Assembly (NCBI GenBank): GCA_963798975.1
Contig: CAWCVU010000006.1
Span: 34,682-98,681, forward strand
Direction: 5' to 3'
Source: an uncultured Gammaproteobacteria bacterium
Lineage (GTDB): Bacteria > Pseudomonadota > Gammaproteobacteria > JABCZS01
Length of the DNA: 64,000 nucleotides
Position 1 is the stretch's first letter; each line of letters begins with the position of its first letter. The position numbers were made by a program, and so were the translations under genes. Shown here in pieces: positions 11,760-64,000 of the stretch. The notes under the pieces were generated by a model. The model searched no databases. It was not told the origin of the DNA and worked only from the letters and a program-made list of their open reading frames with translations.

Positions 11760-11763
11760 AACG

Positions 11764-20893: not shown

Positions 20894-21666
20894 TTACTCT
20901 TCGTTAAAATTACTCGGATTCTTTTCATAGGCATGAATAAATTCACGCAATAAAATTTGTTGCTCTGGGTCCATGCGCATGTTTTTAAGTAAACTCGGTT
21001 TACGTAACCACGTTCTACCCAAAGCTTGTTGCAAACGCCATTTACGTACGCTGTCATGATTGCCACTGGCCAATACACTCGGCACACGTTGTCCTTCAAA
21101 AATCTCTGGCCGCGTTATAATGCGGATGATCTAATAATGAATCGCTAAATGAATCTTCTCAGGGCCGATTGCTCAGAATGAAGAGCGCCTGGCAATAAAC
21201 GTATCACCGCATCCATAATCACCATCGCAGCTAATTCGCCGCCACTTAACACATAATCCCCTATCGAAATTTCTTCATCGACATATTGCGTGACTATACG
21301 CTCATCGATGCCTTCATAACGGCCAGCAATTAATATCAATTGCCCGCAGGTGGTTAATTCACGTACTTTAGATTGTGTTAAAGAAGATCCTTGTGGACTT
21401 AAATACACAACCTTCGATGGCTCTAAAGTACTCGCATCTTGCGCGGCAAAAATAGCATCACGCAAAGGCTCTGGTTTCATCACCATTCCAGGACCACCAC
21501 CGTAAGACTTATCATCTACAGTGTGATGTTTATCTTCTGCAAAATCACGAGGATTCCAATAATTCACCATCGCTAAACGATTACGAACTGCTCGACCGGT
21601 AATACCCACGTCGGTCACCGCAGTAAACATTTCAGGAAACAAGGTAATGATATCAAAGCGCAACAT
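20894..21666 (-). CDS. trmD: tRNA (guanine37-N1)-methyltransferase; two frameshifts as assembled
   Basis: ORF 21145..21666 is the N-terminal TrmD ([26 protein letters not shown]). The middle segment [16 protein letters not shown] lies in a second frame. [38 protein letters not shown] lies in a third frame (ORF 20894..21085). The shifts are near 21155-21162 and 21105-21113. Confidence 0.85.
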
Positions 21667-40186: not shown

Positions 40187-40222
40187 ATTTGCATTTGCAA
40201 ATTATTTAGTGAATTGACCTTT

Positions 40223-49425: not shown

Positions 49426-52400
49426 ACTAACTCCTTCCAAGTCGTCGTTAAGGGAAAATATAGACCTAAACGAATAGGCCGCTTATCTATTTGTCGCAAT
49501 ATCTGTGCATAATGTTGTAATTGATGCGCATAGGTTTCTATTTCATCAGGAACACCTAATTTGTAATCAATAATCCAACGTTGATTATTATCAACAAAAG
49601 TTCTATCCATCACTATACGAGTAGGTTTATTATTATAAACCGTATGCAGCGCATATTCGCAAGCTGATTCTTCATGTGCTTGTAAAATCCACTGCCCTTT
49701 TGGATCGTTTAAGATGCCTTGCACAGCTTGGTTTAATAAGCTTAATCCGGTATCAAGTTCACTTGCGCTCACCCCTAGTTCTATGAGCTGAATTCGCCAG
49801 CGTGCTAAATCTACTTTTCTAATGCCCGTATCAGCGAAGTATTTTAATATACGATGTAATAACGTACCTACATGCTTACGCATGATTACATTAGGTTCAA
49901 AGGCAGTGCTATCAACTGTATTGTCTTCAGGTATATTTGTTTTGTGTTCATTTAACCAGTTATGCCAAGGCTCAGGTAACTGCCAATTTAATGGAAGACG
50001 TTTTAAACCGCTTTCGTTTTGCACTAAAGTACTGTCAACATGTGCAGGGTAACAGATAGTTTCATGATCAAAGCTTGAGGACAATAACGCAAATAAACTT
50101 TGTGGCGCTGGGCTTGGGCGTTCTGGATCTAGAACTGCGAATAAATATAACTGTTGTTTTGCGCGTGTTAGGGCTACGTATAATAATCGCTGAGTTTCAT
50201 AGTTTTGTTGATACTTTTCAACTCTGCCTAAATAATTATAGATCGGATCACTTTGCAAAGTTTTACCATGAACAGGTGCTAATAGCCAATGTGTACCATT
50301 AGCTAAAGTTTGTTCAAAATAACGCAGAACTACAGGTGTATTATTAGCAGGCCTGCGCGTAAGCCCTGGTAAAAATACCGCATCAAATTCCAGACCTTTT
50401 GCTTTATGAATGGTCATCACCTGGATAGGATTTAAATCAGAGTCCATTTGATCTGTATAGAGTTTGTCTATTTGTTGTTGTAAAATATGCATATCCAGCA
50501 CTTGATATTCTTGTTCTAAAAAATCTAATAATTTATAAAATGTTGCACTATTTACCACATCTTGCGCTTTTGTATAAGACACACCACCTAAAGCAGCCCA
50601 TGCACTTTCAACCCAAAGTGCCAAAGGCATGCGATCTCGTGCATCCAATGTTGGTTTTAATGCAGCAGTAAAACCTTCAACACGTGCTTTCGCATTGCTT
50701 GATAATAATGCAATTGCATCAGAGTCCTGCAAAATATCCCATATAGCAGCATTTTCTTTAAAATTAATCAGCGTTTCAATTTGTCCCAGATCTAAACCAC
50801 AAACGGGAGAACGCAATAAGGCAAGCCAAGCAATATTATCGTAAGGATGTAGCAATGCACGGGTCAACGCTAATAAATCATGAATCAGTTCATGTTTTGA
50901 TAAAGGCTCAATTTCTAACGCTTGAAAGGCTAGTCCATGCGCTTTGAGTTGCGGTAGAATATCTGATAAATGACTACGAGCACGCACTAAAATAGCGCAA
51001 CGCCAATGAGGATAGTGCTGTTTAATTTGCTGGAGATGCTGCACTAATAATATGGCTTCTTGCTCAGGATCTTCTGCTTTAATGCACTTGATTAATCCTG
51101 TTTCATCCCTAACTCTTGCAGCCTGACACTGCGTAAAAGGTATCGCACCTAAAGTAATATTAGCTGTTTTAGGCATGATATCAGGCATCACCTGATTGAT
51201 CCAATCGATTAACGAAGGTTGCGATCTAAAATTCATAGTTAATTTTAAGGGTATTAAGGGAATATCATTAATGCCTTGTTGCTTGGCCTTTAAAAATAAA
51301 CCCACATTGGCTTGCCTGAAACGATAAATCGATTGCATGGGGTCACCCACTAAAAACAAAGTATGATGATCTTGCGAAGACCAGCCATTGGTTAGTTTTT
51401 CTAATAATTTAAATTGGGTCATTGAAGTATCTTGAAATTCATCAACTAATATATGTTGTAATTGATAGTCCAACACTTGGGCTAAATCAGTTGGATTATC
51501 TGGCTCGCCTAACGCTTGCAGTGCACGACTTGCAATTTCTATAAAATCCACTTGTCCATAGTGTTGAAATGTGAGTAAAAGTTGTGCTGCCATTATAGGC
51601 AATACCGTTAATAATGCTTGTAAAAACTCCCAGCTGCTTAATGTATAATGCAAAGGTGGTGCTTCTCGCAATAATAACATGGCAAAGCGTAACTCTTCAT
51701 GGGCTTGCAAAGTGCTTAATAATTCTTGCATGTCTTTTTTATAAGTATTATTGACATTAGGTGGAAACCCTTGACGCTTGTCAACTTGTTTACGATAGTC
51801 ACCGTCCTTAGTTAATAAAAGCTCGATGATAGCCAACCATTTGGGCAAATCATCACAGGTTAAAGAGGGCCATTCATTGCAATCTAAACCTGCATAACGA
51901 GCAAGCGGTAGTAAGGTTTGCACAAGATCTTGTGGAAAACTCTGTCCAATAACACTTAACCTATCCAAAACAATATTTTCTAAATGTTTTTCAAATTGTT
52001 TTTTCAAGGCTCTATCATCAGGAATACCTATCACATAAGGTAGCCATTGATCACGCTTTTTAAGCATATCAATAAAGACGGATTCAATCAGGCTGTACTG
52101 ATTATCAAAGTGTTGAAACACGCTGATTAAGGCATTTTTCCAGGGTGTGTCTTCATCCAAAGTTTCCAAAATTGCTCTTATTGTTTTTTGATAAATTTCA
52201 TCTGAATTATTACTCATGCGCACTTGACCGCCAACACCTGAGACTATCGGCATTTGTGAAGTTAAACGCATGCACAAGGCATCGATGGTTTGAATATATA
52301 AACGATTGGGATTGGCTAATAATTGCCAATTTTCTTTTTTATCTCGCAACAATACTTTTTGAGCTAAATCTATTGTGACAGATTGCATGGTTTGCGTATC

Positions 52401-52625
52401 ATTTATCAATGCCTTTTCAAGCGCATTAATAATTCTGCTGCGCATTTCATGGGCGGCTTTACGGGTAAAAGTAATCGCTAATATTTCTTCAGGAAAACGT
52501 GCGCAAGTTGCTAATAAACTTAAAAAACGTTGTACTAATAATTCGGTTTTTCCTGAACCTGCAGGTGCTTCAACTATAAAAGATAAAGTTGGATCAAGTG
52601 CTTGGCGTCTAATTGCATTATCCAT
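49413..52625 (-). CDS. addA: AddA-type UvrD-family helicase / PD-(D/E)XK nuclease
   Basis: Walker A EAPAGSGKTELL, motif Ia ILAITFTRKAAHEM, DEFQDTS, and the C-terminal nuclease motif IIDYKLG. The likely start MDNAIRR at 52625 forms TAATG with the addB stop. Confidence 0.8.
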   Translation of the reverse strand: MDNAIRRQALDPTLSFIVEAPAGSGKTELLVQRFLSLLATCARFPEEILAITFTRKAAHEMRSRIINALEKALINDTQTMQSVTIDLAQKVLLRDKKENWQLLANPNRLYIQTIDALCMRLTSQMPIVSGVGGQVRMSNNSDEIYQKTIRAILETLDEDTPWKNALISVFQHFDNQYSLIESVFIDMLKKRDQWLPYVIGIPDDRALKKQFEKHLENIVLDRLSVIGQSFPQDLVQTLLPLARYAGLDCNEWPSLTCDDLPKWLAIIELLLTKDGDYRKQVDKRQGFPPNVNNTYKKDMQELLSTLQAHEELRFAMLLLREAPPLHYTLSSWEFLQALLTVLPIMAAQLLLTFQHYGQVDFIEIASRALQALGEPDNPTDLAQVLDYQLQHILVDEFQDTSMTQFKLLEKLTNGWSSQDHHTLFLVGDPMQSIYRFRQANVGLFLKAKQQGINDIPLIPLKLTMNFRSQPSLIDWINQVMPDIMPKTANITLGAIPFTQCQAARVRDETGLIKCIKAEDPEQEAILLVQHLQQIKQHYPHWRCAILVRARSHLSDILPQLKAHGLAFQALEIEPLSKHELIHDLLALTRALLHPYDNIAWLALLRSPVCGLDLGQIETLINFKENAAIWDILQDSDAIALLSSNAKARVEGFTAALKPTLDARDRMPLALWVESAWAALGGVSYTKAQDVVNSATFYKLLDFLEQEYQVLDMHILQQQIDKLYTDQMDSDLNPIQVMTIHKAKGLEFDAVFLPGLTRRPANNTPVVLRYFEQTLANGTHWLLAPVHGKTLQSDPIYNYLGRVEKYQQNYETQRLLYVALTRAKQQLYLFAVLDPERPSPAPQSLFALLSSSFDHETICYPAHVDSTLVQNESGLKRLPLNWQLPEPWHNWLNEHKTNIPEDNTVDSTAFEPNVIMRKHVGTLLHRILKYFADTGIRKVDLARWRIQLIELGVSASELDTGLSLLNQAVQGILNDPKGQWILQAHEESACEYALHTVYNNKPTRIVMDRTFVDNNQRWIIDYKLGVPDEIETYAHQLQHYAQILRQIDKRPIRLGLYFPLTTTWKELVCNS

Positions 52626-55225
52626 TAGTTGTTTCTCACTCTGCATAAAATGTCTAAATTACAATACCGACAAGTGGTTTGTGCCTCTTGTGGCGTAACA
52701 GTTGCTACGCCTTGATAAAACTCATCTGCCAAAGTAGTGAGTACTTGGTGCCAATGTGCTAATACTTCTGGCCAAGAAAGATTTAATTGATTGGGTGTTT
52801 GATGGGCCATTAAATCAATAAATTTATGTTCATTGGCTTTAACCATGGCAAAAGCAATACCTTGGGTTGGCATATGACTCATCGCATATAAAGGTAATTG
52901 CAGGGATAAGGGGCGAGTATCTAACCAATCGGGCTGATTGATGATACCTGTTTTATAATCAATTAATACAATTTCACCGGTAGCAAGTTGATCGATTCTA
53001 TCGATGCGCGTCTTAAGTTTAATAGTTGATAAACTAATTTCTATGCTTTTTTCAGTTTCTAATACTGTAAATGCAGGACGTTTTAATTCAAAGTCTAACC
53101 ATTGTTTTAATAGCGCCTGCAATCTATTTGTTTCTAACACTAGATGCATAGCAGACACGGTGTGCGCTGGTATTTGTTTTATTGCATAATTAATTGCTTG
53201 GTGGATACCTGCTTCCAACTCAGCGCTTGAAAGAATGGATAAAGCCTTTGAAGTTTTAATTTTCTTCCAGAAAAATTCCAGGGCTGCATGCACGAGTTCG
53301 CCACGTTGTGCAAATGATAAGCCACTTTGGCGTGGATCTGGGGATTTTGCTTTTAGACGATAACGTGCAAAAGCTTGAAAAGGGCATGCGCTTTGTGATT
53401 GCAGTAAACCTACACCACCTGCAATATAATTATTTTTATTAAGTGGAATAGGACTCTCAAACCAAGATTCAAGAATTAATTCTTGATCATACAGGGCAGG
53501 CATTTGCACTATCACAGTTGAATGATATGCTGGATAGTCTCTGATTAAACGACTCGGCATTAAGTGTTTATCATTTTCTTGCTGGGGATAACTTAAAATC
53601 ACTTGTTTGGCTTGTTGCGTAAAACGTTGGGTTAAATGACTTGCGAAAATATACTCTCGTTCACTGGAGGCATGTGGCATAAAGTGTTGGCGTTGCAATT
53701 CTATCGGTATAAAAGGATGTGGGCTGCAAGCTTGTGGCCAGTTTTCATGGTGCAAGCCCATCACCCAGAGCGCCTGAAAATATAAACCCTCACCTTCTAA
53801 GGCGCCTAAAATTTGCAAAGGTGCATTTTCACTTTCGCCTTGAAATAATAATTTTTGTGCTTGTTGGAATAATAAATGGTGGGCGGCAGTATATGATAAT
53901 GGTTTTTGTATACAATCAAGGCTTGCAAAATCATTGAGTAATTCATAAAAACGTTTTACAAGTTGATATTCAAGGCTATTAAGTACACGTTCTCCTGGCC
54001 AACCCCAAGCGTTTAGATATATTTTAAATAGTTCAACCCATAGGCTGGGTTTTAACAAACTATCGTTTAGAGGGGGGATGCTTACAATAGTGGGAGGGGC
54101 AACATATTCTTGTCCCCTTTTTTTTATTTCCAAATCTATTTGCGAGCGATTGAGGTGTTCGCTTACCCCGCCAGTAATAAAGGGAGATAATAGTATTTTA
54201 CTTAAATGATCAACTGGCATTTTTCGTAAATTATATTTAAATAATTCAAATACTATAGATATAACTGGATAGTCTGACAATCTATTTCCTGAGGAAATAT
54301 TATAAGGTTTTTGGCTGTGATAATGATTAGCTAAAATCGTTTGTGGCATTAAGGTTTTTGCAAACACCCTATCGACCTCATTAAATCGCAGTGCTAAATC
54401 AGGTATAATTACCCCTATGGGTTCATTCGGATTTTGTGCCAGTTTTGATTTGGCCCAAAGGGCTGCTTGTTCTAACTCGGTGTGTGCATTTAATTGTGCA
54501 GCACAATAGACTAGCGCTTTTTCGCGATATTCCAATATTTCTATGCTGCTGCCCTGCTCGCATAATAGAGTAAATATGCGTTGCACAGCTGGTTTAATAT
54601 CTGTAAAACCAATTAAATATATCTTATGACTTAATTTTGGATTTAAATACTCAAGTACACTCGCAGAATCTAATACATTTTTCTTGCTACAAGCTTCTTG
54701 GTATTGTTGGCACCAATCTATAAATGTTTGAATATCCGTGGATACGTTTTCATTTACTAAAGATTGCCATGGAATACACCATTCTTTTAATAGGATCCAT
54801 GCTTGCTCAGCCATTTGTGCAGCAGCGTCTTTACGTAGCAATGGCGATGGTTCTGCATTAATAATCTCTTGCCAGATTAATTGATTTTGCCAGGCATTTA
54901 AACGTTGCATAGGCGGGTTGTCGTTATCATCTTGGTAATCTTGCCAAAGTCTATCAAACCAACCCGTGATGGAAACAATATCGATATGCCAAACATTTTT
55001 ATTTTTCTTGGCCATCCATTGCGCGCAATCTTTATTTAGGCGGGTTGCCAGCCTGCGCGTTGGCGTTAAAATTAAATCTGCTTGTGTGAGTTGTGCTAAA
55101 AATTCATCATAAGACTGATGAATAACCTTAATCTTGTAGCCACAGACATTGTCCACTATTGGCCTCTTTAATTTTTTGTAAATAATGCGTGTGCGCAGCA
55201 AGTTCTTCAGAGTTTGCATAAACAA
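52625..55225 (-). CDS. addB: AddB-type nuclease subunit (PD-(D/E)XK with Fe-S cluster cysteines)
   Basis: 866 aa with no functional Walker A visible. C-terminal LIDYKTG nuclease motif flanked by CPFQAF... and ...CRYCNLDILC cysteines. The start is uncertain because it overlaps the dnaQ 3' end by about 98 nt. Confidence 0.7.
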   Translation of the reverse strand: MFMQTLKNLLRTRIIYKKLKRPIVDNVCGYKIKVIHQSYDEFLAQLTQADLILTPTRRLATRLNKDCAQWMAKKNKNVWHIDIVSITGWFDRLWQDYQDDNDNPPMQRLNAWQNQLIWQEIINAEPSPLLRKDAAAQMAEQAWILLKEWCIPWQSLVNENVSTDIQTFIDWCQQYQEACSKKNVLDSASVLEYLNPKLSHKIYLIGFTDIKPAVQRIFTLLCEQGSSIEILEYREKALVYCAAQLNAHTELEQAALWAKSKLAQNPNEPIGVIIPDLALRFNEVDRVFAKTLMPQTILANHYHSQKPYNISSGNRLSDYPVISIVFELFKYNLRKMPVDHLSKILLSPFITGGVSEHLNRSQIDLEIKKRGQEYVAPPTIVSIPPLNDSLLKPSLWVELFKIYLNAWGWPGERVLNSLEYQLVKRFYELLNDFASLDCIQKPLSYTAAHHLLFQQAQKLLFQGESENAPLQILGALEGEGLYFQALWVMGLHHENWPQACSPHPFIPIELQRQHFMPHASSEREYIFASHLTQRFTQQAKQVILSYPQQENDKHLMPSRLIRDYPAYHSTVIVQMPALYDQELILESWFESPIPLNKNNYIAGGVGLLQSQSACPFQAFARYRLKAKSPDPRQSGLSFAQRGELVHAALEFFWKKIKTSKALSILSSAELEAGIHQAINYAIKQIPAHTVSAMHLVLETNRLQALLKQWLDFELKRPAFTVLETEKSIEISLSTIKLKTRIDRIDQLATGEIVLIDYKTGIINQPDWLDTRPLSLQLPLYAMSHMPTQGIAFAMVKANEHKFIDLMAHQTPNQLNLSWPEVLAHWHQVLTTLADEFYQGVATVTPQEAQTTCRYCNLDILCRVRNN

Positions 55226-55832
55226 CTTTAAAATCTAATGAGCCATGTTGTACACCTTCTTGCGCTGTCTGTGCACGCTGTGATTGTTCTGATACTTCTA
55301 AAGAGAGATCCGCTTGCCCGCCAGTCATCGCTAAATACACTTGGGCTAGTATTTGTGCATCTAATAAGGCGCCGTGAAGTTCTCTATCGAAATTATCTAT
55401 TTCATAACGTTTGGATAAGGCATCTAATGAATTTTTTTGGTTGGGATGTTTTTTTCGCGCAACACTTAAGCTATCAAGGACTTGGGCATAATCTTCAATG
55501 TTGCCTAGGTTTTTATCTAATAGCGCTAATTCATAATTTAAAAAATTGATATCGAAACTGGCATTATGAATAATTAATTCGGCATTTTTTATAAAGGCTA
55601 GTAAATCGTGAGCCACTTCTTTAAACCTTGGTTTGTCGGCTAGAAAGCTGCGGGTTATGCCATGTATTTTTTGTGCGCCGTAATCGATATCTCTGTCGGG
55701 GTTTAAGTAATAATGAAACTTTTTGCCGGTTAAGCGGCGGTTGAGCATTTCTAGGGCGCCGATTTCGATAATTCTGTGCCCTGCTTGTGGGCTTAGGCCG
55801 GTGGTTTCTGTGTCTAGTATGATTTGGCGCAT
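55128..55832 (-). CDS. dnaQ: DNA polymerase III epsilon subunit (3'-5' proofreading exonuclease)
   Basis: MRQIILDTETTGL (Exo I), HNASFDINFL (Exo II), HGALLDAQILAQVY (Exo III). The track ORF start at 55922 lies inside the repeat element and is spurious. Confidence 0.9.
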   Translation of the reverse strand: MRQIILDTETTGLSPQAGHRIIEIGALEMLNRRLTGKKFHYYLNPDRDIDYGAQKIHGITRSFLADKPRFKEVAHDLLAFIKNAELIIHNASFDINFLNYELALLDKNLGNIEDYAQVLDSLSVARKKHPNQKNSLDALSKRYEIDNFDRELHGALLDAQILAQVYLAMTGGQADLSLEVSEQSQRAQTAQEGVQHGSLDFKVVYANSEELAAHTHYLQKIKEANSGQCLWLQD

Positions 55833-55848
55833 GTATGTCCTTATTGTG

Positions 55849-55975
55849 TTACGCAACTTATAGATCCGTCCAAACGGGGCCTGTCCTGCGACTGCTTTTA
55901 TGTGCTCGCAAGCTGCGCGCATAAAAACAGTCTCCGGCCACCCGTTTGGAATTAGGTTAGTGGCGTTTTGCGTAA
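55849..55975. repeat. third, inverted and diverged copy of the 127-bp MITE-like element
   Basis: TTACGCAAC ... GTTTTGCGTAA. It aligns to the reverse complement of 42316..42442 at roughly four-fifths identity by eye. It lies between the rnhA stop and the dnaQ start. Confidence 0.75.
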
Positions 55976-56002
55976 GCTTAATTTATATTTTATTCTAAAA
56001 AG

Positions 56003-56440
56003 CTATGATAACTCATCTATTGCTTGATTTGCTAATTCGTCAGCTATTTCGTTTTCTCTATGGCCGCTGTGACCTTTTACCCAGTGCCATTCTACTTGGT
56101 GGAGTTCTAGGGCTTGTGTTAGGGCTTGCCATAAGTCGGCATTCTTTACGGGTTGTTTATTGGCTGTTCGCCAGCCGTTTTTACGCCAATTATGGATCCA
56201 GGTGGTGATGCCAAGTCTTACGTATTGGGAATCGGTGGTGATTTCTACGTTACAAGGTACTTTTAAGGCGTTTAAACCTGCTATTGCTGCCATAAGCTCC
56301 ATACGGTTATTAGTGGTTAGCAGTTCTGCGCCTTTTAGGGTTTTTTCTTGGCCATTATAACGAAGGACTACACCCCAGCCGCCGGGGCCTGGATTACCTC
56401 TGCAGGCGCCATCTGTAAATAATTCTACTTTCTTAAGCAA
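56003..56440 (-). CDS. rnhA: ribonuclease HI
   Basis: 145 aa, [46 protein letters not shown]. Confidence 0.95.
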
Positions 56441-56556
56441 TATAACCCTACCTTAGTGCAAATATAGGCCTAGGAACAGGATATTTTTAGCTATACAACT
56501 AATAAAATACCCTTTTTGTGTTCCTTTTTTGACCTATTTCTGGTACAATACACGTT

Positions 56557-57663
56557 ATGAACACAATAAATAAGTATATCAAGCATTTATCATTGTTCTT
56601 TCTTGTCGTAGGGTTAGTGGTAGGTTCTAATGCGTTAACGGTATCTAGTGTACCGAAAACCGAAGAAACCACTGTCTCAACAAATGACAATCTATGGGAT
56701 CGCCTGCGTGTAAACTTTCACTTGGATCATGCCACAGAGCAGGAACTGGTGCAAACACATCGCGCCTGGTACCTCAATAACTCAGAATATATTGAGAATA
56801 TCTTTAATCGCGCCGAGCCTTACCTTTATTATATAGCCGAACAAGTTGAAGCGCGTGGCTTACCTTTAGAATTTGTTTTAATTCCTGTGGTAGAAAGTAC
56901 TTATGATCCCCATGCACTCTCTAATAAAGGTGCTAAGGGCTTATGGCAATTAATGGCGGCTACTGCACGTTATTATGGTATTAAACAAACTGGTGGTGGA
57001 TATGATGGACGTGTGGATATCATTGCCTCTACTGATGCTGCTTTAGGCCATTTGAGCTATTTAGCAGAGCTTTATGATAATGACTGGTACCTAGTATTGG
57101 CAGCTTATAATGCCGGCCAAGGTAATGTTAATAATGCGATTAAAAAGAGTAAGGCTGCAGGCCGTGGTGGCGATTTTTGGTCTTTAAGCACTTTGCCTAA
57201 AGAAACACGTCATTATGTGCCTAAGATTATTGCGCTTGCCGATGTGATTAAGAACTATCAGCGTCATAATCTAGAATTACCTATCGTTGCCGACGAGCCA
57301 CAAGTGGCTGCAGTTGATATTGATGTTGAAGATTATTTAGATTTAACCATCGCTGCTAATTTAGCCGATGTTGAACCTGAAACTTTACGCGAAATGAATC
57401 CTGGCTTTAGCCAAGCGGTGATTGCTAACCATGCGGATGAGATCTTAATTCCTGCAGATAAGGTAGAAATCTTTAAAGCAGCGCTTGAAGATTATACGCC
57501 ACAGAAAAAGGCTACTTTTAATTATGTGGTCCAAAGTGGTGATACTTTAAATAAAATCAGTAAAAACCATGGCATTTCAGTGGCTACTTTGCAACAGTAC
57601 AACAATCTCTCTTCTGCAAATCTACAAATTGGTCAAGTACTTAAAATTACTAGAGGCGCTTAA
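56557..57663 (+). CDS. mltD: membrane-bound lytic murein transglycosylase D (SLT domain + LysM)
   Basis: 368 aa with a signal/lipoprotein-like N-terminus, an SLT catalytic region (VVESTYDPHALSNKGAKGLWQLM, AAYNAG) and a C-terminal LysM (YVVQSGDTLNKISKNHGISVATLQQYNNL). Confidence 0.85.
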   Translation: MNTINKYIKHLSLFFLVVGLVVGSNALTVSSVPKTEETTVSTNDNLWDRLRVNFHLDHATEQELVQTHRAWYLNNSEYIENIFNRAEPYLYYIAEQVEARGLPLEFVLIPVVESTYDPHALSNKGAKGLWQLMAATARYYGIKQTGGGYDGRVDIIASTDAALGHLSYLAELYDNDWYLVLAAYNAGQGNVNNAIKKSKAAGRGGDFWSLSTLPKETRHYVPKIIALADVIKNYQRHNLELPIVADEPQVAAVDIDVEDYLDLTIAANLADVEPETLREMNPGFSQAVIANHADEILIPADKVEIFKAALEDYTPQKKATFNYVVQSGDTLNKISKNHGISVATLQQYNNLSSANLQIGQVLKITRGA

Positions 57664-57671
57664 TATATTTC

Positions 57672-57697
57672 CCTCATCGCCCGTTAGGGCGATGAGG
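57672..57697. terminator. hairpin between convergent mltD and the first paralog gene
   Basis: cctcatcgccc gtta gggcgatgagg forms an 11-bp perfect GC-rich stem. The flanking T/A runs are weak. Confidence 0.45.
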
Positions 57698-57711
57698 AAA
57701 TTATTTATAGC

Positions 57712-58914
57712 TTAAAGATAGGGATTACTGATCGTATTGCCATATAAGCAAACATAGGCTCTTTCACTTTCGCAATCAACAGTAAAAGCATCCATACGTG
57801 GATTAGTTTGTTCTGTGTGCTCATCACGTCCTAAGACTAATATTCTACCTTGTAAACCCGCAGTAGCTCTACCGTCCTCAAACTCAAATGCACCTGTTGA
57901 CAAGACATTACCTGCAATAAACGAACCCGCTGACTGCTCAGTAGCGCCTCTCACTATCCAATAGACACGGTCTGCTTGTGCACCGTTGCGCAATAAGATG
58001 TTAGCATTTTCAAAGATGTAAAACACTTGTTTTAAATGATCAGCACTACCATAGTCAATGATAAATACATAATCGCCATCACCATTTAGAATAAAATCAC
58101 CGTTGATAGTCACGGGTGAAGGATCTCTGAAACAAAAAACACCAGCAGAAACTTGAGGAACCAAACCCTTATGACCTAAGGATGGACTTAGTGTATTATT
58201 ATTATGGCAACCACCATCATACTGTTTATTTAGCATCGCATAAAATGTAGCTTCAGTATCTTCATTAGCAGCAATGGTCAGCTCTTCAAACGGCCCATAC
58301 AATCTATGCTGATCATAATAGCGAATAAGTTGCGTACCAAAACCATGCTCATCGGTATAGCCTACATTAAAAGCTACTGTTGCATCTTGACTTGCAGTAT
58401 TAAAAACACTAGGTGCCAATACTGAAAAATCTTCTGCAGCACCTAAAGTAGTAATATTGAGATCAATTTCTGAATAAAAATCACGAGCCCAAGTATTGAT
58501 GTCTATTTCTAAAGTACGATCAATTTGTGTCCATTCTCTTACAGGGCAATCAATAGATGTCGTGTTAAGTTCAAGAACAATACTACATTCATAACCGATA
58601 GCCTTACCAATTTGGCAAGTACTTCTTTCTTTAGAATAAGTCACTAAATCTTTATCCGGAAAACTATCAAGATGATTTGGTGAAATTTCAACATCTAATA
58701 AAGTAATACCAGGATCTCTATTATTAACGACGCGATATGTTAATGGCTTGGCTTCTGCTCCGCATGCAGCTTTGTGGACATTAGGCGCAAAAATACAAAC
58801 ATCTGCCTCTTCATTACATTCATTATGGACTGATTCAGCATGTGCAACACCTACTAAAAAAATAGAGGTAGATAAACTGAGTAGAGCCAATTTTAGATTA
58901 TATGTTTTAAGCAT
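57712..58914 (-). CDS. secreted two-module protein, family member A (Ig-like N-module + DUF3494/ice-binding-like C-module)
   Basis: 400 aa with signal peptide MLKTYNLKLALLSLSTSIFLVGVAHA. LGAAEDFSVLA ... VSAGVFCF ... DRVYWIVRGATEQSAGSFIAGNVLSTG ... LQGRILVLG match my memory of the DUF3494 pattern. Confidence 0.65.
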   Translation of the reverse strand: MLKTYNLKLALLSLSTSIFLVGVAHAESVHNECNEEADVCIFAPNVHKAACGAEAKPLTYRVVNNRDPGITLLDVEISPNHLDSFPDKDLVTYSKERSTCQIGKAIGYECSIVLELNTTSIDCPVREWTQIDRTLEIDINTWARDFYSEIDLNITTLGAAEDFSVLAPSVFNTASQDATVAFNVGYTDEHGFGTQLIRYYDQHRLYGPFEELTIAANEDTEATFYAMLNKQYDGGCHNNNTLSPSLGHKGLVPQVSAGVFCFRDPSPVTINGDFILNGDGDYVFIIDYGSADHLKQVFYIFENANILLRNGAQADRVYWIVRGATEQSAGSFIAGNVLSTGAFEFEDGRATAGLQGRILVLGRDEHTEQTNPRMDAFTVDCESERAYVCLYGNTISNPYL

Positions 58915-58998
58915 GACTTCATTTCCTTTTGATTAGTTTGTTAAAGTGCGAAAGTGAGGCCCAATAATATAGATTGTGAACTCATGTCTATATCTGAG

Positions 58999-59745
58999 TC
59001 ATCTATATCCAGAGTTCTCAGGATCATCATCAGGATCTGAATCACCATCACCTGTTAATTTAGCTGTTCCTTGAACTTCGACATCACCTAAACTAGCATA
59101 CAAATACTCTAATGAAATGCCAATATCATCGGTAATATCATAGCCTAGACCAATACCAAACTCATATGCAAATGAAGTGGTTGCATCACTGTCAAGTTCA
59201 AAACCATAAGGGAGCAAATCAGAAGTCGGTGTTGTGCTAAAGTCGGTATCATTCCAAGAAATCCCTAAACCGCCTATGCCGTAGATTGAAAAACCTTGCA
59301 TAGAAGCAAAAGTCACTGCCAAATCAAACATCAAACGTGCACTGCTATAATCCATGGTGTAATCCGCTTGATTAGACTCTTCAAAGCGAAGTACATGACC
59401 ATCAATCTCATCACCATCTAAGTAATAAAGATTGACTTGTGGAATAACATTAGGTAGCCAGCGAAAATCATCTTCATCTTCAGAATCATCATCTAGATCG
59501 ATCAGAAATTCATAACCTATACCTACTTTAGCGGTCCAAAAATTCCAATCCTCTTCATTTTGAACAAGACTATCGGTCTCATCGCTTGTTGGATTAAAGG
59601 TGCCATCTTGATCAATGGAGGAAATACCTCCTGCTATTAATAACTGTAATCCACCTTCTAATTGATCTTCAACATCTTCTGCAAATACAAAACCTGAGGT
59701 CAGCGCAAGGGCCATACCTAATAAAAATTTTGTTGGTGTGTACAT
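58999..59745 (-). CDS. acidic outer-membrane beta-barrel protein (OmpW/opacity-type small barrel)
   Basis: Signal peptide MYTPTKFLLGMALALTSGFVFA, alternating aromatic/Gly strands (KVGIGYEF, SIYGIGGLGISW, FAYEFGIGLGYDI, GISLEYLYASL), and Asp/Glu-rich loops and tail. The start is taken at the internal Met of track ORF 58999..59778. Confidence 0.6.
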   Translation of the reverse strand: MYTPTKFLLGMALALTSGFVFAEDVEDQLEGGLQLLIAGGISSIDQDGTFNPTSDETDSLVQNEEDWNFWTAKVGIGYEFLIDLDDDSEDEDDFRWLPNVIPQVNLYYLDGDEIDGHVLRFEESNQADYTMDYSSARLMFDLAVTFASMQGFSIYGIGGLGISWNDTDFSTTPTSDLLPYGFELDSDATTSFAYEFGIGLGYDITDDIGISLEYLYASLGDVEVQGTAKLTGDGDSDPDDDPENSGYR

Positions 59746-59822
59746 AGAATAAAGTCCCTTTAATGAATGAAAAAGCAATTCTCCATAAAACTCTTGTTAA
59801 AGTATATACCATTTTACAATTT

Positions 59823-59854
59823 AAAAAAGGGGATCTAAAAAATAAATCCCCTTT
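59823..59854 (-). terminator. rho-independent terminator after family member B
   Basis: On the minus strand, aaagggga ... tccccttt forms a stem followed by T6. Confidence 0.55.
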
Positions 59855-59875
59855 GACACACTACCTAAGCAAGTT

Positions 59876-61125
59876 TTAATACCGTGGTTTAACGATATTA
59901 TTACCATTTAGACTGACATCATTATCAATTGCTAGTATTCTACCTACGACTTGTAAAGGTGTACCAATTTCTTCATCAACTTCAAAATAACCGTTGATTA
60001 ATAAACTACCTGGTATTTGACCATTTACTGCGCCTTCGACATTACCATTAGAAATCCAGATGATATTGTCTTCAGTCGCTTTTTCACCTTTGGCATGGCT
60101 GTTATCTATCACATAATCTGCATTACCTTCTATCCATAAGGCATAGCTATCAGGGATATTCATAATTATCCAGAAAGGTGCAGGACTATCTTTAGCATTG
60201 GTATTAGTAAAGGTTACTGTACCATCGATTACCATGGGAGGAACATTACCCGCGTCGTCGTTTAAACAAAAAGTGGTTGTTTTCGCATAGTCAATGTATT
60301 GGTGATTGAAGCTGAATCATCCAATGTATTGGGTAAACCATTAGTTGTTTGACAAGTTGTGGTGATATTCAACATATTATCAAAAGCAGCAGTTAAATCT
60401 TCAAATGCTACCATGGTGACAGTACCATATCGAAATGGACGGCTTTCATCACTATAACTGATGTCATCTGTTAAATGGCCTTTCTTTTTAGTGATACCGA
60501 CATCTTGAGATACTTGAATTACACCTGATTGTGCTGTAGCAAGTTTGTGTTGATCATTATGGATATTATTCCCAATTATAGAGAAATCATCTCCAGATCC
60601 CAGATAAGTAAAGTCAAACTCGATATCTTTTCTAACTTCACGTAATGGACCGTCATAAGTAACGAGCAATTCTCTTGAAATATGACCGATAGGTGGATAA
60701 CCGTTTACATCAAGACATGCTTGGGTATCTTCAGGGTTCACTTCAATAAGAAGCTCACATGACTCGCCAGGCTTTAGTTTAAAAGGTACACGTCCTGGTA
60801 CTTCATGACCGCAGGCGTACTTATTGTCCATTCCTGGAGCAGGAAGACTTACTATGTCATAGCTTGAAAAATCATCATCATGATTCGGGTTAATATCTAA
60901 TTTTGTAACTTCAAAATTATCATCACCAATGTTTTTAAGCCAAAAAGACACAAAACGTGGTTCCGCATTACATACAACATCTCTGAACTCACGGTGATGA
61001 TCGCCTATGATGATAATTCTATCATCGTTAGCTTGATTACCTACTTCATTGGCGTAAGCTACATTCATCAAACAAGATGAGACACAACCTAGCAACGCTA
61101 ATTTATAACTTAATACTTTACTCAT
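59876..61125 (-). CDS. secreted two-module protein, family member B; one frameshift as assembled
   Basis: ORF 60262..61128 holds the signal peptide MSKVLSYKLALLGCVSSCLMNVAYA, the N-module and YLGSGDDFSIIG. The frame of ORF 59876..60235 stays open upstream (IDYAKTTTFCLNDDAGNVPPMVIDGTVTF) and carries NIIWISNG...VVGRILAIDNDVSLNGNNI. The frame switch is near 60290-60300. Confidence 0.65.
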
Positions 61126-61174
61126 CATTCATTTCCTTTCTAAAGTTAATTTATTTTAAATTACAAATGGTCAC

Positions 61175-62584
61175 TTATTTTTTAAGACAATCGGTATCTG
61201 CAAAAACAGTCCCGTTACTTAAAGTGATTTCTCCGCCACGTACATCCTGGTTGTCGTCGCTTTCCCATTCTTCTCTGTCCAAAGTATATATGCCGCCCGC
61301 TATTGCAGGAATACATTCAACTTCACTATCATTTTGGTCACGACCGCAATCTGGAGCATCCATTTCAAAGCCACCATTAGTTATCAGATCACCCGCAAAG
61401 TTGTAGGTGCCATCAGCAGGAGTTCTATTAATGGATTGAACTTCAGTTTGGCCAGTTACTACCCAGGTCACATCACTAAAATCTGTACCTTCAGCAAATT
61501 GGAAATAACCTGAGTCAACAATAGTTAAAGCCATGTCATCTGCATCGCCAGTTCCATCAACGATCAATACAATTTGTGAGCCTTTAGCATCAAAAGTAAC
61601 GGGTCCAGCTACTGTAACAGGCGTATCTCCAATAAAGCATTGAACACCGCCTCGAATGATAACAGGTTCTGGATCATGCAAATCACCATTGAGATTTGAT
61701 GGCAAGAAGTTACAACTTTGTGCTGACACTTCAGGATCCCCTAGTTTCTTTAAGGTATGATAAACTTTTAGTAGATCATTACCTGCAGCTTCAGCAACAG
61801 CATCATCATCTCTATAGATGTTTTCTAAAGTCTTGATATTATCCGATATATAAGTGTTTTCATCTAACAAAGCAATGTCTTGAGGAACAAGAACTTCATC
61901 ACTGGGTGTTGGAGGCATTGGAGGTACGGGAGGCCATGGCCATGGATGATTTTGTGCAAGGCTAAAATCAGGATCGCATTGCGCTTCATCACCATTGGTA
62001 CATAATCTTGTTCCCACTAAAGAAAATGAATCTAAAGAACCAATAAGTGTCATTTCGATATCATCTAATTCAAAAACCGCCGCACGTTGGTAAGTTTCAA
62101 GTAGAACGACTAAGTCGCGTTTGATTTCGCCTGTAGTTGGCAAAGTATCATTATCGCCACAATCAACTGATTCAGGGTTAACTAATACATTGATATTACA
62201 GTGACCACCATTTGCAGGAAGATCAAAATGAAAACGTGGGTTAGGGAATGCATCATTATCATGATGGCTGCCATATCCACAATCATTGGTTGTCTGAGGT
62301 GGTAACACTTTGATTAATCCACCAAAACGACGAAAATCATCACCTCGATCTGTCTTGATGAATATCCCGCTTACTGGCGCGCGATCATCATCTTCGTTGG
62401 TCAAGGTGAAAGTATAAATAACAGGTTTTGTTTCACAAGCTATATCTCTTAATTCAGGCTCATATGGTCCTGGACCCGTTAATGCTAAAGTCACCAGATC
62501 TTCACTGTTTGCATAAGCGGCGCTCATTAAACATGATGAGACACAGCCAAGCAAAACTAATTTGTAACGCAATGCATTGGTCAT
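61175..62584 (-). CDS. secreted two-module protein, family member C (with Pro/Trp-rich linker)
   Basis: 469 aa with signal peptide MTNALRYKLVLLGCVSSCLMSAAYA, nearly identical to that of member B. LIGSLDSFSLVG, HPWPWPPVPPMPPTPS linker, GGVQCF, DVTWVVTGQTEV. Confidence 0.65.
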   Translation of the reverse strand: MTNALRYKLVLLGCVSSCLMSAAYANSEDLVTLALTGPGPYEPELRDIACETKPVIYTFTLTNEDDDRAPVSGIFIKTDRGDDFRRFGGLIKVLPPQTTNDCGYGSHHDNDAFPNPRFHFDLPANGGHCNINVLVNPESVDCGDNDTLPTTGEIKRDLVVLLETYQRAAVFELDDIEMTLIGSLDSFSLVGTRLCTNGDEAQCDPDFSLAQNHPWPWPPVPPMPPTPSDEVLVPQDIALLDENTYISDNIKTLENIYRDDDAVAEAAGNDLLKVYHTLKKLGDPEVSAQSCNFLPSNLNGDLHDPEPVIIRGGVQCFIGDTPVTVAGPVTFDAKGSQIVLIVDGTGDADDMALTIVDSGYFQFAEGTDFSDVTWVVTGQTEVQSINRTPADGTYNFAGDLITNGGFEMDAPDCGRDQNDSEVECIPAIAGGIYTLDREEWESDDNQDVRGGEITLSNGTVFADTDCLKK

Positions 62585-62840
62585 AATTTCTTCCTCTTTT
62601 GATTTCAGAATTAAATTTAGAGCTATTCAAGATACACATTTAGCTTATTGTCTTGTAATAAACTTCTGTGCCGACATCTTTTTCCTTAAAAATATTTTAA
62701 GATATTAACTATTAAATTATTATAGGGCTATGTTTTAAGATTGCAAATTTTTTATTTAATATATCGCTAATGTCAACTAGTTAAATAAAGGGAGTCCTAA
62801 TGAAGCCCCCCTTTATATAAGCTTTTAAACTAACAACTAA

Positions 62841-64000
62841 TCAATCGTCATTACTGTCAGAATCGATGGTAAATCCTGAAATATCAATCGTTGTTTCAGG
62901 ACAATCATTTGTCAAACAAGCTTCTGATAAATCAACATCGCCCGTTAAACCATACAGACCACCCATAATGTAAGGCGCTATTTCATTAGGATTAGCAGGT
63001 GGTGGTATAGCAATAGATCCATATTCAATGTCGCCTGCAGTAATTACGTTTCCAGCAAACCGTGAATTAGCCTCGAAATACGTTGATGCATCCTCTGGAA
63101 TAATCCAGAAAATATTTCGATTATTTACCGTAGTTCCTACGGCATCACTGGTTAGCGAGAATTTAGAACCATTATTTATATAAAATTCAGTATCTGTTAA
63201 AATATCACCATCAGAAATTTCATACACTTCATTATCTTGGAAAACGAATACAAAGAGATCATCATCATCCCCTTTGAAAGCAACGTCGTCAGGAATAGCA
63301 TATTCTATTGAGCAATCTGCTTGAAGATCATTATTGGTTAGCTGACAGATTACTTCTCCAGTTACACAATAAAAACCTGGGTACACTTCTAGATAAGAGG
63401 GGCCGCTGCCTGAAAAATCTAATATATAATCTGCATTATCACAATCAACTATACCGGCAGCTACGTCATCTGCATCTTCATCAACTGCAGTTCTAAAAAC
63501 TTGCCAGGTTTGGGCAGCATCTTTGAATGCAGCAGCGCGAGATTCATGAAATTCTACAACGCCACAAGTGTTATATTCACAATTAAAAAAGATATCATCT
63601 TCATCAGTGATACTATCAGCAGCAGATACATTACCTTCTACTGTAGTCATGGCATCCATCGTCCGGGGTTCATCATCATCTGTACCGACGATAATTTCAT
63701 CCGCAATCATGGAGTAATCGATTAAAGAACCCAAGGGGCTTACATCAACATCAACATCAGCTGTTGCGATTCTTGGAAAAAGACCCTGCTTAGCTTCATC
63801 TTCAATCTTGGTATAAACAGCAATTATTTCACGTTCAATTTCACCAATTGCAATCGGATGATCTTCATCAGCGCAAGCTAATTTTGTTGGATCAAATGTA
63901 ATTGTGCCTTCGCATTTTCCAAGACGACCTAAAATAAAACCGCAGCTACCGCGATCAACAGTGACTGCATGATGATTTACTGGAAAGCTATCATCTTCAT
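62841..64000 (-). CDS. secreted two-module protein, family member D (5' end beyond window)
   Basis: Track ORF 62841..63734 is extended by my translation. The same frame stays open to 64000 (EDDSFPVNHHAVTVDRGSCGFILGRLGKCEGTITFDPTKLACADEDHPIAIGEIEREIIAVY...PLGSLIDYSMIA). The C-module has NRNIFWIIPEDAS...RFAGNVITAG. Confidence 0.65.
   Translation of the reverse strand, partial: EDDSFPVNHHAVTVDRGSCGFILGRLGKCEGTITFDPTKLACADEDHPIAIGEIEREIIAVYTKIEDEAKQGLFPRIATADVDVDVSPLGSLIDYSMIADEIIVGTDDDEPRTMDAMTTVEGNVSAADSITDEDDIFFNCEYNTCGVVEFHESRAAAFKDAAQTWQVFRTAVDEDADDVAAGIVDCDNADYILDFSGSGPSYLEVYPGFYCVTGEVICQLTNNDLQADCSIEYAIPDDVAFKGDDDDLFVFVFQDNEVYEISDGDILTDTEFYINNGSKFSLTSDAVGTTVNNRNIFWIIPEDASTYFEANSRFAGNVITAGDIEYGSIAIPPPANPNEIAPYIMGGLYGLTGDVDLSEACLTNDCPETTIDISGFTIDSDSNDD

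What the first reader, a model, noticed from the sequence alone, without database searches (positions are those of the whole stretch)
57712..64000. Array of at least four paralogous secreted two-module proteins (Ig-like + DUF3494/ice-binding-like) with an embedded acidic beta-barrel OMP gene
Seen in the sequence:
- Four same-strand genes (57712..58914, 59876..61125, 61175..62584, 62841..>64000) share one architecture.
- The three whose 5' ends lie in the window (A, B, C) each carry a cleavable-looking signal peptide. The signal peptides of B and C are near-identical: M(S/T)..L.YKL.LLGCVSSCLM..AYA.
- Each has a roughly 120-aa module bracketed by conserved Cys residues. Its pattern (C....P..F.F.L.N.g......i.I.......F......C.....L..g..C.i.V...P) recalls Ig-like 'choice-of-anchor'/ASH-type domains.
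- Each has a conserved hinge L(G/I)(A/S)..DFS(V/I/L)(L/I/V)(A/G).
- Each has a roughly 200-aa C-module with G(V/F)(F/Y/Q)C, then (N/D)(I/V).W(I/V), then F.G(N/D)(V/L)(I/L)..G.
- Even the 5' leader (aaaggaaatgaa before the ATG) is shared.

From memory of the family, the C-module pattern matches DUF3494, the ice-binding-like beta-solenoid family (LGtAa.FavLagstvtn ... nvfWqVgSsatlG..s.f.GniLa..sit...ga.v.GR.LA).

Other points:
- A small, very acidic beta-barrel OMP gene (58999..59745) sits inside the array between members A and B, immediately downstream of a predicted terminator.
- All members are strongly acidic.
- Member C has acquired a PWPWPPVPPMPPTPS linker (about 61900..61960).
- Member B carries a frameshift.
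- The array continues past the window edge.

Inference: this is a birth-and-death family of surface or secreted beta-solenoid proteins, possibly displayed through the co-located barrel. I am not aware of a characterised function for such an array in an intracellular-type gammaproteobacterium.
Basis: partly seen in the sequence, partly recalled or inferred. Interest (0 to 1): 0.78.

Follow-up and report, generated by a model that had tools for sequence, protein, structure and literature searches.

The report
Ice-binding-like surface protein array with barrel partner
The region holds a tandem family of exported two-domain proteins (an Ig-like module followed by an ice-binding-type beta-solenoid) and a small outer-membrane barrel gene that is their conserved genomic partner; the domains are known, but the barrel-plus-Ig pairing, which recurs elsewhere with other C-terminal domains, does not seem to have been described.

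Summary
Window 57712-64000 (minus strand) encodes four paralogues, each with a signal peptide, a Cys-containing Ig-like module and a DUF3494/ice-binding-type solenoid. An OmpA-like barrel gene sits just upstream of the last member.

- **C-module:** Pfam, a PDB profile search and AlphaFold2 plus Foldseek all place it in DUF3494.
- **N-module:** a profile search ties it to the ASH/HYDIN-VesB Ig superfamily.
- **Array size:** a 99.7%-identical sister contig shows eight members, bounded by an oligopeptide ABC transporter and MltD/RNase H. Related genomes carry 3 to at least 8 copies at the same site, always with the barrel before the last member.

- The 'hinge' is the first coil of DUF3494.
- The frameshifts in B and in the barrel gene are probably assembly errors.
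- Acidity is shared by the three other exported proteins checked in the window.
- 'Intracellular-type' is unsupported.

New finding: in 14 of 15 distinct loci, this barrel subfamily lies next to a secreted protein with the same N-terminal Ig module. The C-terminal domain varies (DUF3494, BNR propeller, thaumatin, unknown). I infer a modular barrel-docked surface display. The ligand (ice or another ordered surface) is untested. This is a new variant of a known kind, of moderate interest.

The parts
57672..57697 (.). GC-rich hairpin between the convergent genes A and the MltD-like gene (terminator-like)
   Evidence: 11-bp stem, 8 GC pairs; sequence
57712..58914 (-). Member A, 400 aa. Signal peptide 58837-58914. 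ASH-like Ig module 58447-58836. DUF3494 solenoid 57715-58446.
   Evidence: PF11999, 47 bits; AlphaFold2 pLDDT 79.8, helix 211-231; Foldseek ranks 1-31 all DUF3494 ice-binding proteins
58941..59745 (-). Acidic OmpA-like beta-barrel gene, 267 aa when intact. It is co-transcribed with A (26-nt gap). In the window a 1-nt insertion at 59019 cuts off the last strand; read as-is, the ORF is 58999-59745/59778.
   Evidence: PF13505, 41.8 bits; the last strand RTLDIDDSDIDMSSQSILLGLTFAL is still encoded in the other frame
59826..59854 (-). Intrinsic terminator after B, upstream of the barrel-A operon
   Evidence: an equivalent hairpin is present in L003
59876..61128 (-). Member B, 418 aa when intact. Signal peptide 61051-61128. 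Ig module 60604-61050. DUF3494 59876-60603. The window copy has a 1-nt deletion near 60288 and a 3-nt indel near 60160.
61175..62584 (-). Member C, 469 aa. Signal peptide 62507-62584. Ig module 62045-62506. DUF3494 61178-62044. A Pro-rich insert (HPWPWPPVPPMPPTPS) at 61901-61948 lies between the first coil and the helix.
   Evidence: (C-module HMM 5e-70)
62719..62776 (-). Promoter-like sites upstream of C (TTGACA-18-AAAAAT; TTGCAA-16-TATAAT)
   Evidence: consensus matches only
62783..62814 (-). Terminator-like hairpin after D (AAAGGGGGGCTTCATTAGGACTCCCTTTATTT)
62841..64000 (-). Member D (D1), 461 aa in full; the window holds residues 77-461. DUF3494 62844-63734. Partial Ig module 63735-64000.
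   Evidence: PF11999, 23 bits, below cut-off; P0003, 100% identical

Best explanation
The region is the downstream half of a tandem array of Sec-exported two-domain proteins, plus one small OmpA-like outer-membrane barrel. The array has eight genes in a near-identical sister assembly.

**Anatomy (shown).**
- Each protein has a cleavable signal peptide.
- Next comes a Cys-containing beta-sandwich of about 130 aa from the ASH/HYDIN-VesB Ig superfamily.
- The C-terminal part is a DUF3494 (IBP-1 fold) right-handed beta-solenoid with its flanking alpha-helix.
- The barrel gene is co-transcribed with the last member.

**How it most likely works (inferred).**
- The barrel and the N-terminal Ig module form a conserved two-gene cassette.
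- The barrel acts as the outer-membrane docking partner of the Ig module.
- The Ig module is then a stalk that presents the C-terminal domain at the cell surface.
- The solenoid binds an ordered surface: ice if the habitat freezes, otherwise another crystalline or polymeric substrate.

**How the array evolves (shown).** It diversifies by tandem duplication. Gene conversion keeps the N-terminal two-thirds similar, while the solenoid diverges under overall purifying selection.
For: **Domain identity.**
- Pfam Ice_binding on A, 47 bits.
- The family profile hits 25 PDB DUF3494 chains. It covers the whole domain from the 'LG..F..L' motif, profile 157-401 against 6bg8 residues 8-235.
- AlphaFold2 of A gives pLDDT 79.8 and pTM 0.80 with a long helix at 211-231.
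- Foldseek ranks 1-31 are all DUF3494 ice-binding proteins, E 5e-10 to 8e-7, target TM 0.58-0.80.

**N-module.**
- The profile finds 982 proteins in 1.84 billion representatives.
- The matched repeats in giant proteins coincide with Pfam HYDIN_VesB_CFA65-like_Ig, ASH, Cep192_D4 and DUF1573 domains.
- P0089 and P0094 carry 3-4 such modules before a DUF3494 domain with the canonical motifs; P0045 carries three before a Pfam Ice_binding match of 100.6 bits.

**Link to the barrel.**
- 26-nt gap between the barrel gene and A, with terminators on either side of the pair.
- The same barrel-then-A order occurs at syntenic loci L086, L088 and L104.
- It also occurs in non-syntenic contexts: L087 and the P0094 locus.
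- In 14 of 15 distinct loci with this barrel subfamily, a gene for a secreted protein lies directly adjacent and starts with the Ig module. Its C-terminal domain varies: DUF3494, BNR/Sortilin propeller, thaumatin or unknown.

**Evolution.**
- 3, at least 2, 8 and at least 8 copies at the same chromosomal site in four relatives.
- D2 and D4 are 99% identical.
- dS is about 0-0.3 in the N-terminal two-thirds and saturated in the solenoid. Overall dN/dS is 0.24-0.40.
Against: - No direct evidence of surface exposure or of barrel-Ig contact. The AlphaFold2 model of the barrel failed (pLDDT 33) and no complex could be predicted.
- One family member (L084) and one barrel (L093/L094) occur alone.
- Only the A-type member is in an operon with the barrel. 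The other seven paralogues mostly have their own terminators (B and C share one).
- The route across the outer membrane is unknown. No secretion genes lie in the locus.
- Ice binding cannot be inferred from DUF3494 membership. The family also occurs in non-freezing habitats (PMC11645318, PMC7783341). The sample habitat is unknown.
Confidence: 0.55

Rival explanations
1. The proteins are freely secreted ice-binding (antifreeze or recrystallisation-inhibiting) isoforms of a cold-habitat bacterium. The array simply provides dosage and isoform diversity. The barrel has an unrelated or only loosely related role.
For: - DUF3494 fold with all solved relatives being ice-binding proteins.
- Signal peptides are present and no recognisable anchor (no valid lipobox, no PEP-CTERM, no Pfam anchor domain).
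- The acidic exported proteins fit a saline or brine habitat.
- Thaumatin, another domain paired with this barrel, has antifreeze members in plants (my own knowledge).
Against: - Barrel adjacency is conserved in 14 of 15 loci and across different C-terminal domains, which is hard to explain if the barrel is unrelated.
- Habitat is unknown.
- DUF3494 proteins also occur in hot springs, caves and groundwater (PMC11645318).
Confidence: 0.2
2. The barrel is a dedicated translocator. On this reading the system is a split analogue of type V (inverse-autotransporter-like) secretion, in which the barrel exports or threads the Ig-led passenger encoded by the next gene.
For: - Tight barrel-then-passenger gene order with gaps from -10 to +40 nt.
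- The passenger architecture, Ig module(s) followed by a distal binding domain, resembles intimin/invasin passengers (my own knowledge).
- The 12-sequence barrel alignment allows up to about 12 amphipathic strands.
Against: - The passenger has its own signal peptide and conserved Cys pairs, so it would probably fold in the periplasm.
- The barrel has only about 245 mature residues, no POTRA or LysM domain, and only a PF13505/OmpA-like match.
- In the array one barrel gene sits among eight paralogues.
Confidence: 0.12
3. The proteins are adhesins or host-interaction factors of a host-associated (intracellular-type) gammaproteobacterium. They would bind host glycans or surfaces rather than ice.
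For: - The other domains paired with the barrel (BNR propeller, thaumatin) are typically glycan-binding (function from my own knowledge).
- Some of the closest RelA matches are MAGs labelled Berkiella, Coxiellaceae, Legionellales or Francisellaceae.
- A variable-copy surface family fits host interaction.
Against: - RelA identity is only 44-52%, and equally high to free-living lineages.
- The window encodes histidine biosynthesis, a bc1 complex, pyruvate dehydrogenase, malic enzyme and a TonB-dependent receptor. No type IV secretion genes were found among the window ORFs that were scanned.
- No window of the genes shows dN greater than dS.
Confidence: 0.1

Closest known systems
SfIBP_1 of Shewanella frigidimarina (PDB 6BG8; Vance, Graham and Davies 2018, cited in PMC11645318), a proposed ice adhesin
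   Same: - Exported gammaproteobacterial protein with beta-sandwich domain(s) N-terminal to a C-terminal DUF3494 solenoid.
- The family profile aligns over the whole 6bg8 domain; Foldseek E 5e-9.
- Proposed to be held at the cell surface.
   Different: - SfIBP_1 is described as having tandem Big_2-type domains and a lipoprotein anchor (my own knowledge of that paper).
- Here there is a single ASH/HYDIN-VesB-type module and no Big_2 hit.
- There is no valid lipobox.
- There is a dedicated barrel gene and an eight-gene array.
Canonical single-domain DUF3494 ice-binding proteins (ColAFP 3WP9, FfIBP 4NU2, EfcIBP 6EIO, TisAFP 3VN3, Cryosericum 9LHR)
   Same: - Same fold and topology: first coil, long helix, then the stacked coils.
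- Same motifs: NvfW, aGNil, GRil.
   Different: - 13-21% sequence identity.
- An extra N-terminal Ig module.
- Insertions between the first coil and the helix.
- Very acidic.
- Cys-rich C-terminal cap.
- Three of the four window members fall below Pfam's cut-off.
Multi-Ig DUF3494 proteins found in metagenomes (P0045, P0089, P0094)
   Same: - Same kind of N-terminal module (3-4 copies) followed by DUF3494.
- P0094 also has an upstream PF13505 barrel.
   Different: - Several Ig modules rather than one.
- A canonical, non-acidic solenoid.
- The one locus examined (P0094) holds a single gene, not an array.
Inverse autotransporters (intimin/invasin, type Ve secretion)
   Same: An outer-membrane barrel combined with Ig-like stalk domain(s) and a distal binding domain. 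This is an analogy only.
   Different: - In type Ve, barrel and passenger are one polypeptide.
- Here they are separate genes and the passenger has its own signal peptide.
- The barrel matches OmpA-like PF13505 and not an intimin/invasin barrel family.

Membership tests
DUF3494 / Ice_binding (PF11999) | Match to the Pfam model above the gathering score | tested here: met
   - A: 47 bits against a cut-off of 28.7.
- D 23 bits and the B fragment 16 bits are below the cut-off; C has no hit.
- B, C and D are tied to A by BLASTP and HMM.
- The family profile hits 25 PDB DUF3494 chains.
DUF3494 / Ice_binding (PF11999) | Right-handed beta-solenoid with one long alpha-helix alongside; first coil before the helix | tested here: met
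   - AlphaFold2 of A: strands 163-199, helix 211-231, coils 254-360, pLDDT 79.8.
- Foldseek ranks 1-31 are all DUF3494 structures.
DUF3494 / Ice_binding (PF11999) | Ice-binding activity, with a flat b-face carrying ordered Thr/Ser rows about 4.5 A apart | not testable with these tools
DUF3494 members from non-icy habitats exist (PMC11645318, PMC7783341).
ASH / HYDIN_VesB_CFA65-like Ig (PF15780, PF22544; PapD-like superfamily) | Direct match of the N-module to the Pfam models | tested here: not met
   No Pfam or NCBIfam hit on the N-modules of A-D at E<=1, including the 'choice-of-anchor' models.
ASH / HYDIN_VesB_CFA65-like Ig (PF15780, PF22544; PapD-like superfamily) | Profile-level homology to bona fide members, and a beta-sandwich fold | tested here: met
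   - The N-profile hits giant repeat proteins, up to E 3e-63.
- The matched repeats coincide with Pfam HYDIN_VesB/ASH/Cep192_D4/DUF1573 stretches.
- AlphaFold2 gives an all-beta module at residues 39-155.
- Weak Foldseek hits to the PapD-like chaperones SfaE and FimC, E about 5e-3.
OMP_b-brl (PF13505), small OmpA-like barrels | Pfam match above cut-off, a signal peptide and a C-terminal beta-strand signal | tested here: met
   - 41.8 bits against a cut-off of 28.7.
- Signal peptide ending VFA|ED.
- A conserved terminal strand SQSILLGLTFAL in 12 homologues.
- Strand number is unresolved (8-12). The AlphaFold2 model failed.
Lipoprotein-anchored ice adhesin (SfIBP_1 type) | Lipoprotein signal peptide with a lipobox Cys | tested here: not met
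   - The 'LLGC' motif lies only 5 residues after the last n-region Lys, too short for the G+LPP rule.
- The hydrophobic core continues to AYA|N.
- The Cys is absent in A, in all four L087 members and in L86_474.
Two-partner secretion / Omp85-type translocators | 16-strand barrel with POTRA domains | tested here: not met
   The barrel protein is 267 aa with only a PF13505/OmpA_membrane match. The PDB sequence search finds only the OmpA transmembrane domain, weakly.
Inverse autotransporter (type Ve) | Barrel and Ig passenger in one polypeptide | tested here: not met
   The genes are separate, with a 26-nt gap, and the passenger has its own signal peptide.

The most novel reading that the evidence does not exclude
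The small acidic barrel plus an N-terminal ASH-like Ig module may be an undescribed two-gene system for presenting interchangeable C-terminal domains on the surface of certain Gammaproteobacteria. The domains seen so far are DUF3494, BNR propeller and thaumatin. The barrel would work either as a specific docking receptor or as a split, type-V-like exporter. The window's array would then be an expanded DUF3494 version of this system.
Probability: 0.3. Interest if true: 0.75.

Novelty: new variant of a known kind. Interest (0 to 1): 0.5.

Why it matters
DUF3494 proteins are the commonest microbial ice-binding proteins, yet many occur where there is no ice. How they are held at the cell surface is largely unknown. 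A conserved dedicated barrel partner suggests a concrete, testable anchoring mechanism, because the same barrel-plus-Ig pairing recurs with unrelated binding domains. It would also provide a possible modular display scaffold. The variable-copy array (3 to at least 8 genes at one chromosomal site) is a clear case of a surface family diversifying by duplication and gene conversion. If the proteins do bind ice, eight divergent isoforms in one locus would be a useful natural panel for structure-activity work.

Tried and rejected
- **Close relatives of A in reference genomes.** None found in 185,579 GTDB species representatives.
- **Taxonomy via RelA.** Best identity 52%, to assorted gammaproteobacterial MAGs, so the family and lifestyle cannot be assigned.
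- **Sample metadata from papers.** Searches for ERZ25039590, ERR11718638, SRR8422708, the Ga02068xx names and the IMG ids found nothing.
- **Source names.** No source gives the clusters a name.
- **AlphaFold2 of the barrel without an alignment.** pLDDT 33, unusable.
- **PDB sequence search for the barrel.** Only sub-significant matches to the OmpA transmembrane domain.
- **Look-up of P0006.** Not on record.
- **Lipoprotein reading of the conserved 'LLGC'.** Rejected: the hydrophobic region before the Cys is too short and the Cys is not conserved.
- **Programmed frameshift in B.** Rejected. The change is a TT-to-T deletion, not a slippery site; B is intact in two other assemblies; and many housekeeping genes in the window are also split.
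- **Positive selection on the D copies.** No 40-codon window has dN greater than dS.
- **More family members or barrels elsewhere in the window.** None found.
- **RNA families in the window.** None found.


Full report
**1. What is in the window**

All features lie on the minus strand.
- A is at 57712-58914 (400 aa).
- A barrel gene reads as 58999-59745/59778.
- B is at 59876-61128 and is split into two ORFs.
- C is at 61175-62584 (469 aa).
- D starts at 62841 and runs off the window end.

BLASTP confirms paralogy.
- Within the window: A-B 3e-24, B-C 5e-26 and A-C 1e-9, at 22-26% identity. Truncated D gives 5e-6 to B and 5e-5 to C.
- Full-length D from a sister contig gives 1e-15 to B, 6e-15 to C and 3e-4 to A.

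HMMs built from 16 family members find exactly these four genes and one barrel in the six-frame translation of the window, and nothing else.

**2. The whole array**

An ENA metagenome contig (L001/L003, 76 kb) is 99.7% identical to window 53860-64000. It shows the complete locus:
- an oligopeptide ABC transporter;
- E (457 aa), D4, D3, D2, D1 (the window's D, 461 aa), C, B (intact, 418 aa);
- the barrel (267 aa), then A;
- a convergent MltD-like gene, then RNase H, DnaQ and AddB/AddA-like genes.

Hairpin terminators follow E, D4, D3, D2, D1, B and A. C-to-B (46 nt) and barrel-to-A (26 nt) have no terminator, so the barrel and A form an operon.

Only A, D1 and E are recorded for the NCBI contig that matches the window. 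Copy number may therefore differ between assemblies, or repeats may have been collapsed.

**3. The frameshifts are probably artefacts**

Compared with L001, the window has these differences:
- a 1-nt deletion in B near 60288 (TT to T);
- a 3-nt indel near 60160;
- a 1-nt insertion in the barrel gene at 59019.

The last barrel strand is still encoded in the other frame at 58941-59018. A third assembly (L002, Logan) agrees with L001. L001 in turn has a split MltD gene that is intact in the window.

The window also carries fragmented essential genes: pyruvate dehydrogenase E1, E2 and E3 in six or more pieces at 9917-12770, a truncated TrmD, malic enzyme in two ORFs, and a truncated cytochrome b. 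Assembly indel error is the simplest reading. I do not treat B as a pseudogene.

**4. C-module**

- Pfam Ice_binding (PF11999) hits A above the cut-off (47 bits). D and the C-terminal piece of B fall below it, and C has no hit.
- A profile of ten family members hits 25 distinct solved DUF3494 ice-binding proteins (E 3.6e-9 to 4e-4). Several alignments run from profile position 157, the LG..DF..L motif, to the end of the domain.
- AlphaFold2 of A with this shallow alignment gave pLDDT 79.8 and pTM 0.80. The model has the first coil, a long helix at 211-231 and stacked coils at 254-360.
- In Foldseek against the PDB, ranks 1-31 are all DUF3494 proteins (E 5e-10 to 8e-7, target TM-score 0.58-0.80).
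- The Pro-rich insert of C (61901-61948) lies between the first coil and the helix. It is an insertion within the domain, not an inter-domain linker.

**5. N-module**

No Pfam or NCBIfam model hits it directly. A profile of nine N-modules was searched exhaustively against 1.84 billion representatives. It found 982 proteins at E<=1e-3, in two groups.
- **Giant proteins with 5-31 matched repeats.** Pfam annotates the same stretches as HYDIN_VesB_CFA65-like_Ig, ASH, Cep192_D4 and DUF1573.
- **About 20 proteins of 370-470 aa with the same two-module architecture.**

P0045, P0089 and P0094 have 3-4 such modules in front of a DUF3494 domain. The model shows an all-beta module at residues 39-155, and Foldseek gives weak hits to PapD-like chaperones. 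The 'ASH-type Ig' guess is supported by transitive homology, not by direct membership.

**6. Signal peptides**

All members have a K/R n-region, a hydrophobic core and AxA.
- The sequence (Y/F)KLALLGC(V/A)SSCLM..AYAN is unusually conserved. It is 67-79% identical at the DNA level among E, D1-D4, C and B, although their mature parts are 25-30% identical at the protein level.
- It is also conserved in other genomes.
- I considered and rejected a lipobox reading. The region before the Cys is too short, and the Cys is missing in A, in the L087 members and in L86_474.

**7. The barrel is a conserved partner**

Syntenic loci in relatives, lying between the ABC transporter (where that flank is visible) and MltD/RNase H, carry different copy numbers:
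- 3 paralogues in L086;
- at least 2 in L088;
- at least 8 in L104/L105.

In each, the barrel sits immediately before the last, A-type member. In a different genomic context, L087 has the barrel followed by four paralogues.

A metagenome scan with the barrel alignment returned 15 loci. I analysed them with my own HMMs and with Pfam. Together with the loci above there are 15 distinct informative loci. In 14 of them, a gene for a signal-peptide protein beginning with the N-like Ig module lies directly adjacent. Its C-terminal domain varies:
- DUF3494 (L089, L095, the P0094 locus);
- BNR/Sortilin-type propeller (L091, L098);
- thaumatin (L102, L103);
- unknown (L090, L101).

The exceptions are a solitary barrel (L093/L094) and a solitary family member (L084). 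Several of these cassettes come from one assembly, for example Ga0206861 (L089, L092, L093). The conserved unit is therefore barrel plus Ig module, with the C-terminal domain exchangeable. The pairing itself is shown. That it means docking or display is my inference.

**8. Evolution**

- Among the D-type copies overall dN/dS is 0.24-0.40.
- D2 and D4 are 99% identical.
- Codon windows 121-240 have dS of about 0-0.3, which indicates gene-conversion tracts.
- Windows 281-440, in the solenoid, have saturated dS and dN of 0.2-0.5.
- No window has dN greater than dS.

Duplication with partial homogenisation fits. Positive selection is not shown.

**9. Acidity and organism**

- Mature family members have pI of 4.5 or below, with D+E at 11-20% of residues (14-20% in the window's own members). 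The barrel has D+E at 19-23%.
- The window's TonB-dependent receptor (pI 4.2), a porin-like ORF at 16003-17157 (pI 4.05) and, more mildly, the MltD-like protein (pI 5.3) are also acidic. The cytoplasmic proteins are mostly pI 5.4-7.4.
- Acidity therefore looks like a general trait of the exported proteins in the window, possibly reflecting a saline habitat, and not a property of this family alone.
- RelA is at most 52% identical to any GTDB species representative, so this is a deep-branching gammaproteobacterium with no close reference.
- The window encodes histidine biosynthesis, a bc1 complex, pyruvate dehydrogenase and malic enzyme. An intracellular lifestyle is not indicated.

**10. Function**

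Shown:
- domain identities;
- export signals;
- operon structure;
- the conserved barrel partnership;
- array dynamics.

Inferred:
- surface presentation through barrel-Ig docking;
- the identity of the ligand.

DUF3494 proteins are described from both icy and non-icy habitats and may bind substrates other than ice. Beta-sandwich domains in them are suspected to aid adhesion (PMC11645318, PMC7783341). I found no description of a barrel partner in the two papers I read or in my text searches. That is weak evidence of absence.

**11. Verdict**

The finding is a real and correctly identified family, with several corrected details. Its components are known. The dedicated barrel-plus-Ig cassette and the large syntenic array make it a new variant of a known kind, of moderate interest. 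The more novel reading, a modular display or secretion system, remains open.

Noticed in passing
window 9917-12770, 21145-21666, 27923-29642, 31911-32762: Essential housekeeping genes are fragmented: pyruvate dehydrogenase E1/E2/E3, TrmD, malic enzyme and cytochrome b. This points to many indel errors in this assembly, or less likely to widespread pseudogenisation.
   Followed up: partly
L003 8500-8560, 10011-10071, 11508-11568, 13117-13177, 14614-14674, 16256-16316, 17715-17775; window equivalents about 62510-62570 and 61054-61114: The signal-peptide coding region (KLALLGC.SSCLM..AYAN) is conserved at the DNA level among seven paralogues. It is also conserved in other genomes, far more than the mature proteins. 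The reason is unknown.
   Followed up: partly
L091 5755-7386, L098 5674-7332, L102 5684-7696, L103 1667-3679, L090 5720-7795, L101 3129-4814: Homologues of the barrel are paired with secreted proteins that share the N-terminal Ig module but carry BNR/Sortilin-like propellers, thaumatin domains or unknown domains instead of DUF3494.
   Followed up: partly
window 40214-42313 and 16003-17157: A TonB-dependent receptor (pI 4.2) and a porin-like ORF with no Pfam hit (pI 4.05, 19% D+E) are as acidic as the array. The cytoplasmic proteins are mostly near neutral. The exported proteins in the window are acidic as a group.
   Followed up: partly
window 5147-8800, 23387-24739 and 4120-5052: Large ORFs (1217, 450 and 310 aa) have no Pfam match at E<=1e-5.
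   Followed up: no
L003 10001-14492 compared with the NCBI contig: D4 and D2 are 99% identical and the D4-D3/D2-D1 unit repeats with a period of about 3.1 kb. D2-D4 are recorded only for the ENA contig, not the NCBI one. This may be true copy-number variation or repeat collapse.
   Followed up: partly
L001 11252-12360 (= window 56557-57663): The MltD-like SLT/LysM gene is intact in the window (368 aa) but split in the ENA contig by two 1-nt insertions. Each assembly carries its own indels.
   Followed up: yes
window 49413-55225: A large AddA/AddB-like helicase-nuclease pair (1077 and 866 aa) overlaps the dnaQ ORF by about 100 nt as listed. Pfam labels come from the syntenic locus L086.
   Followed up: no
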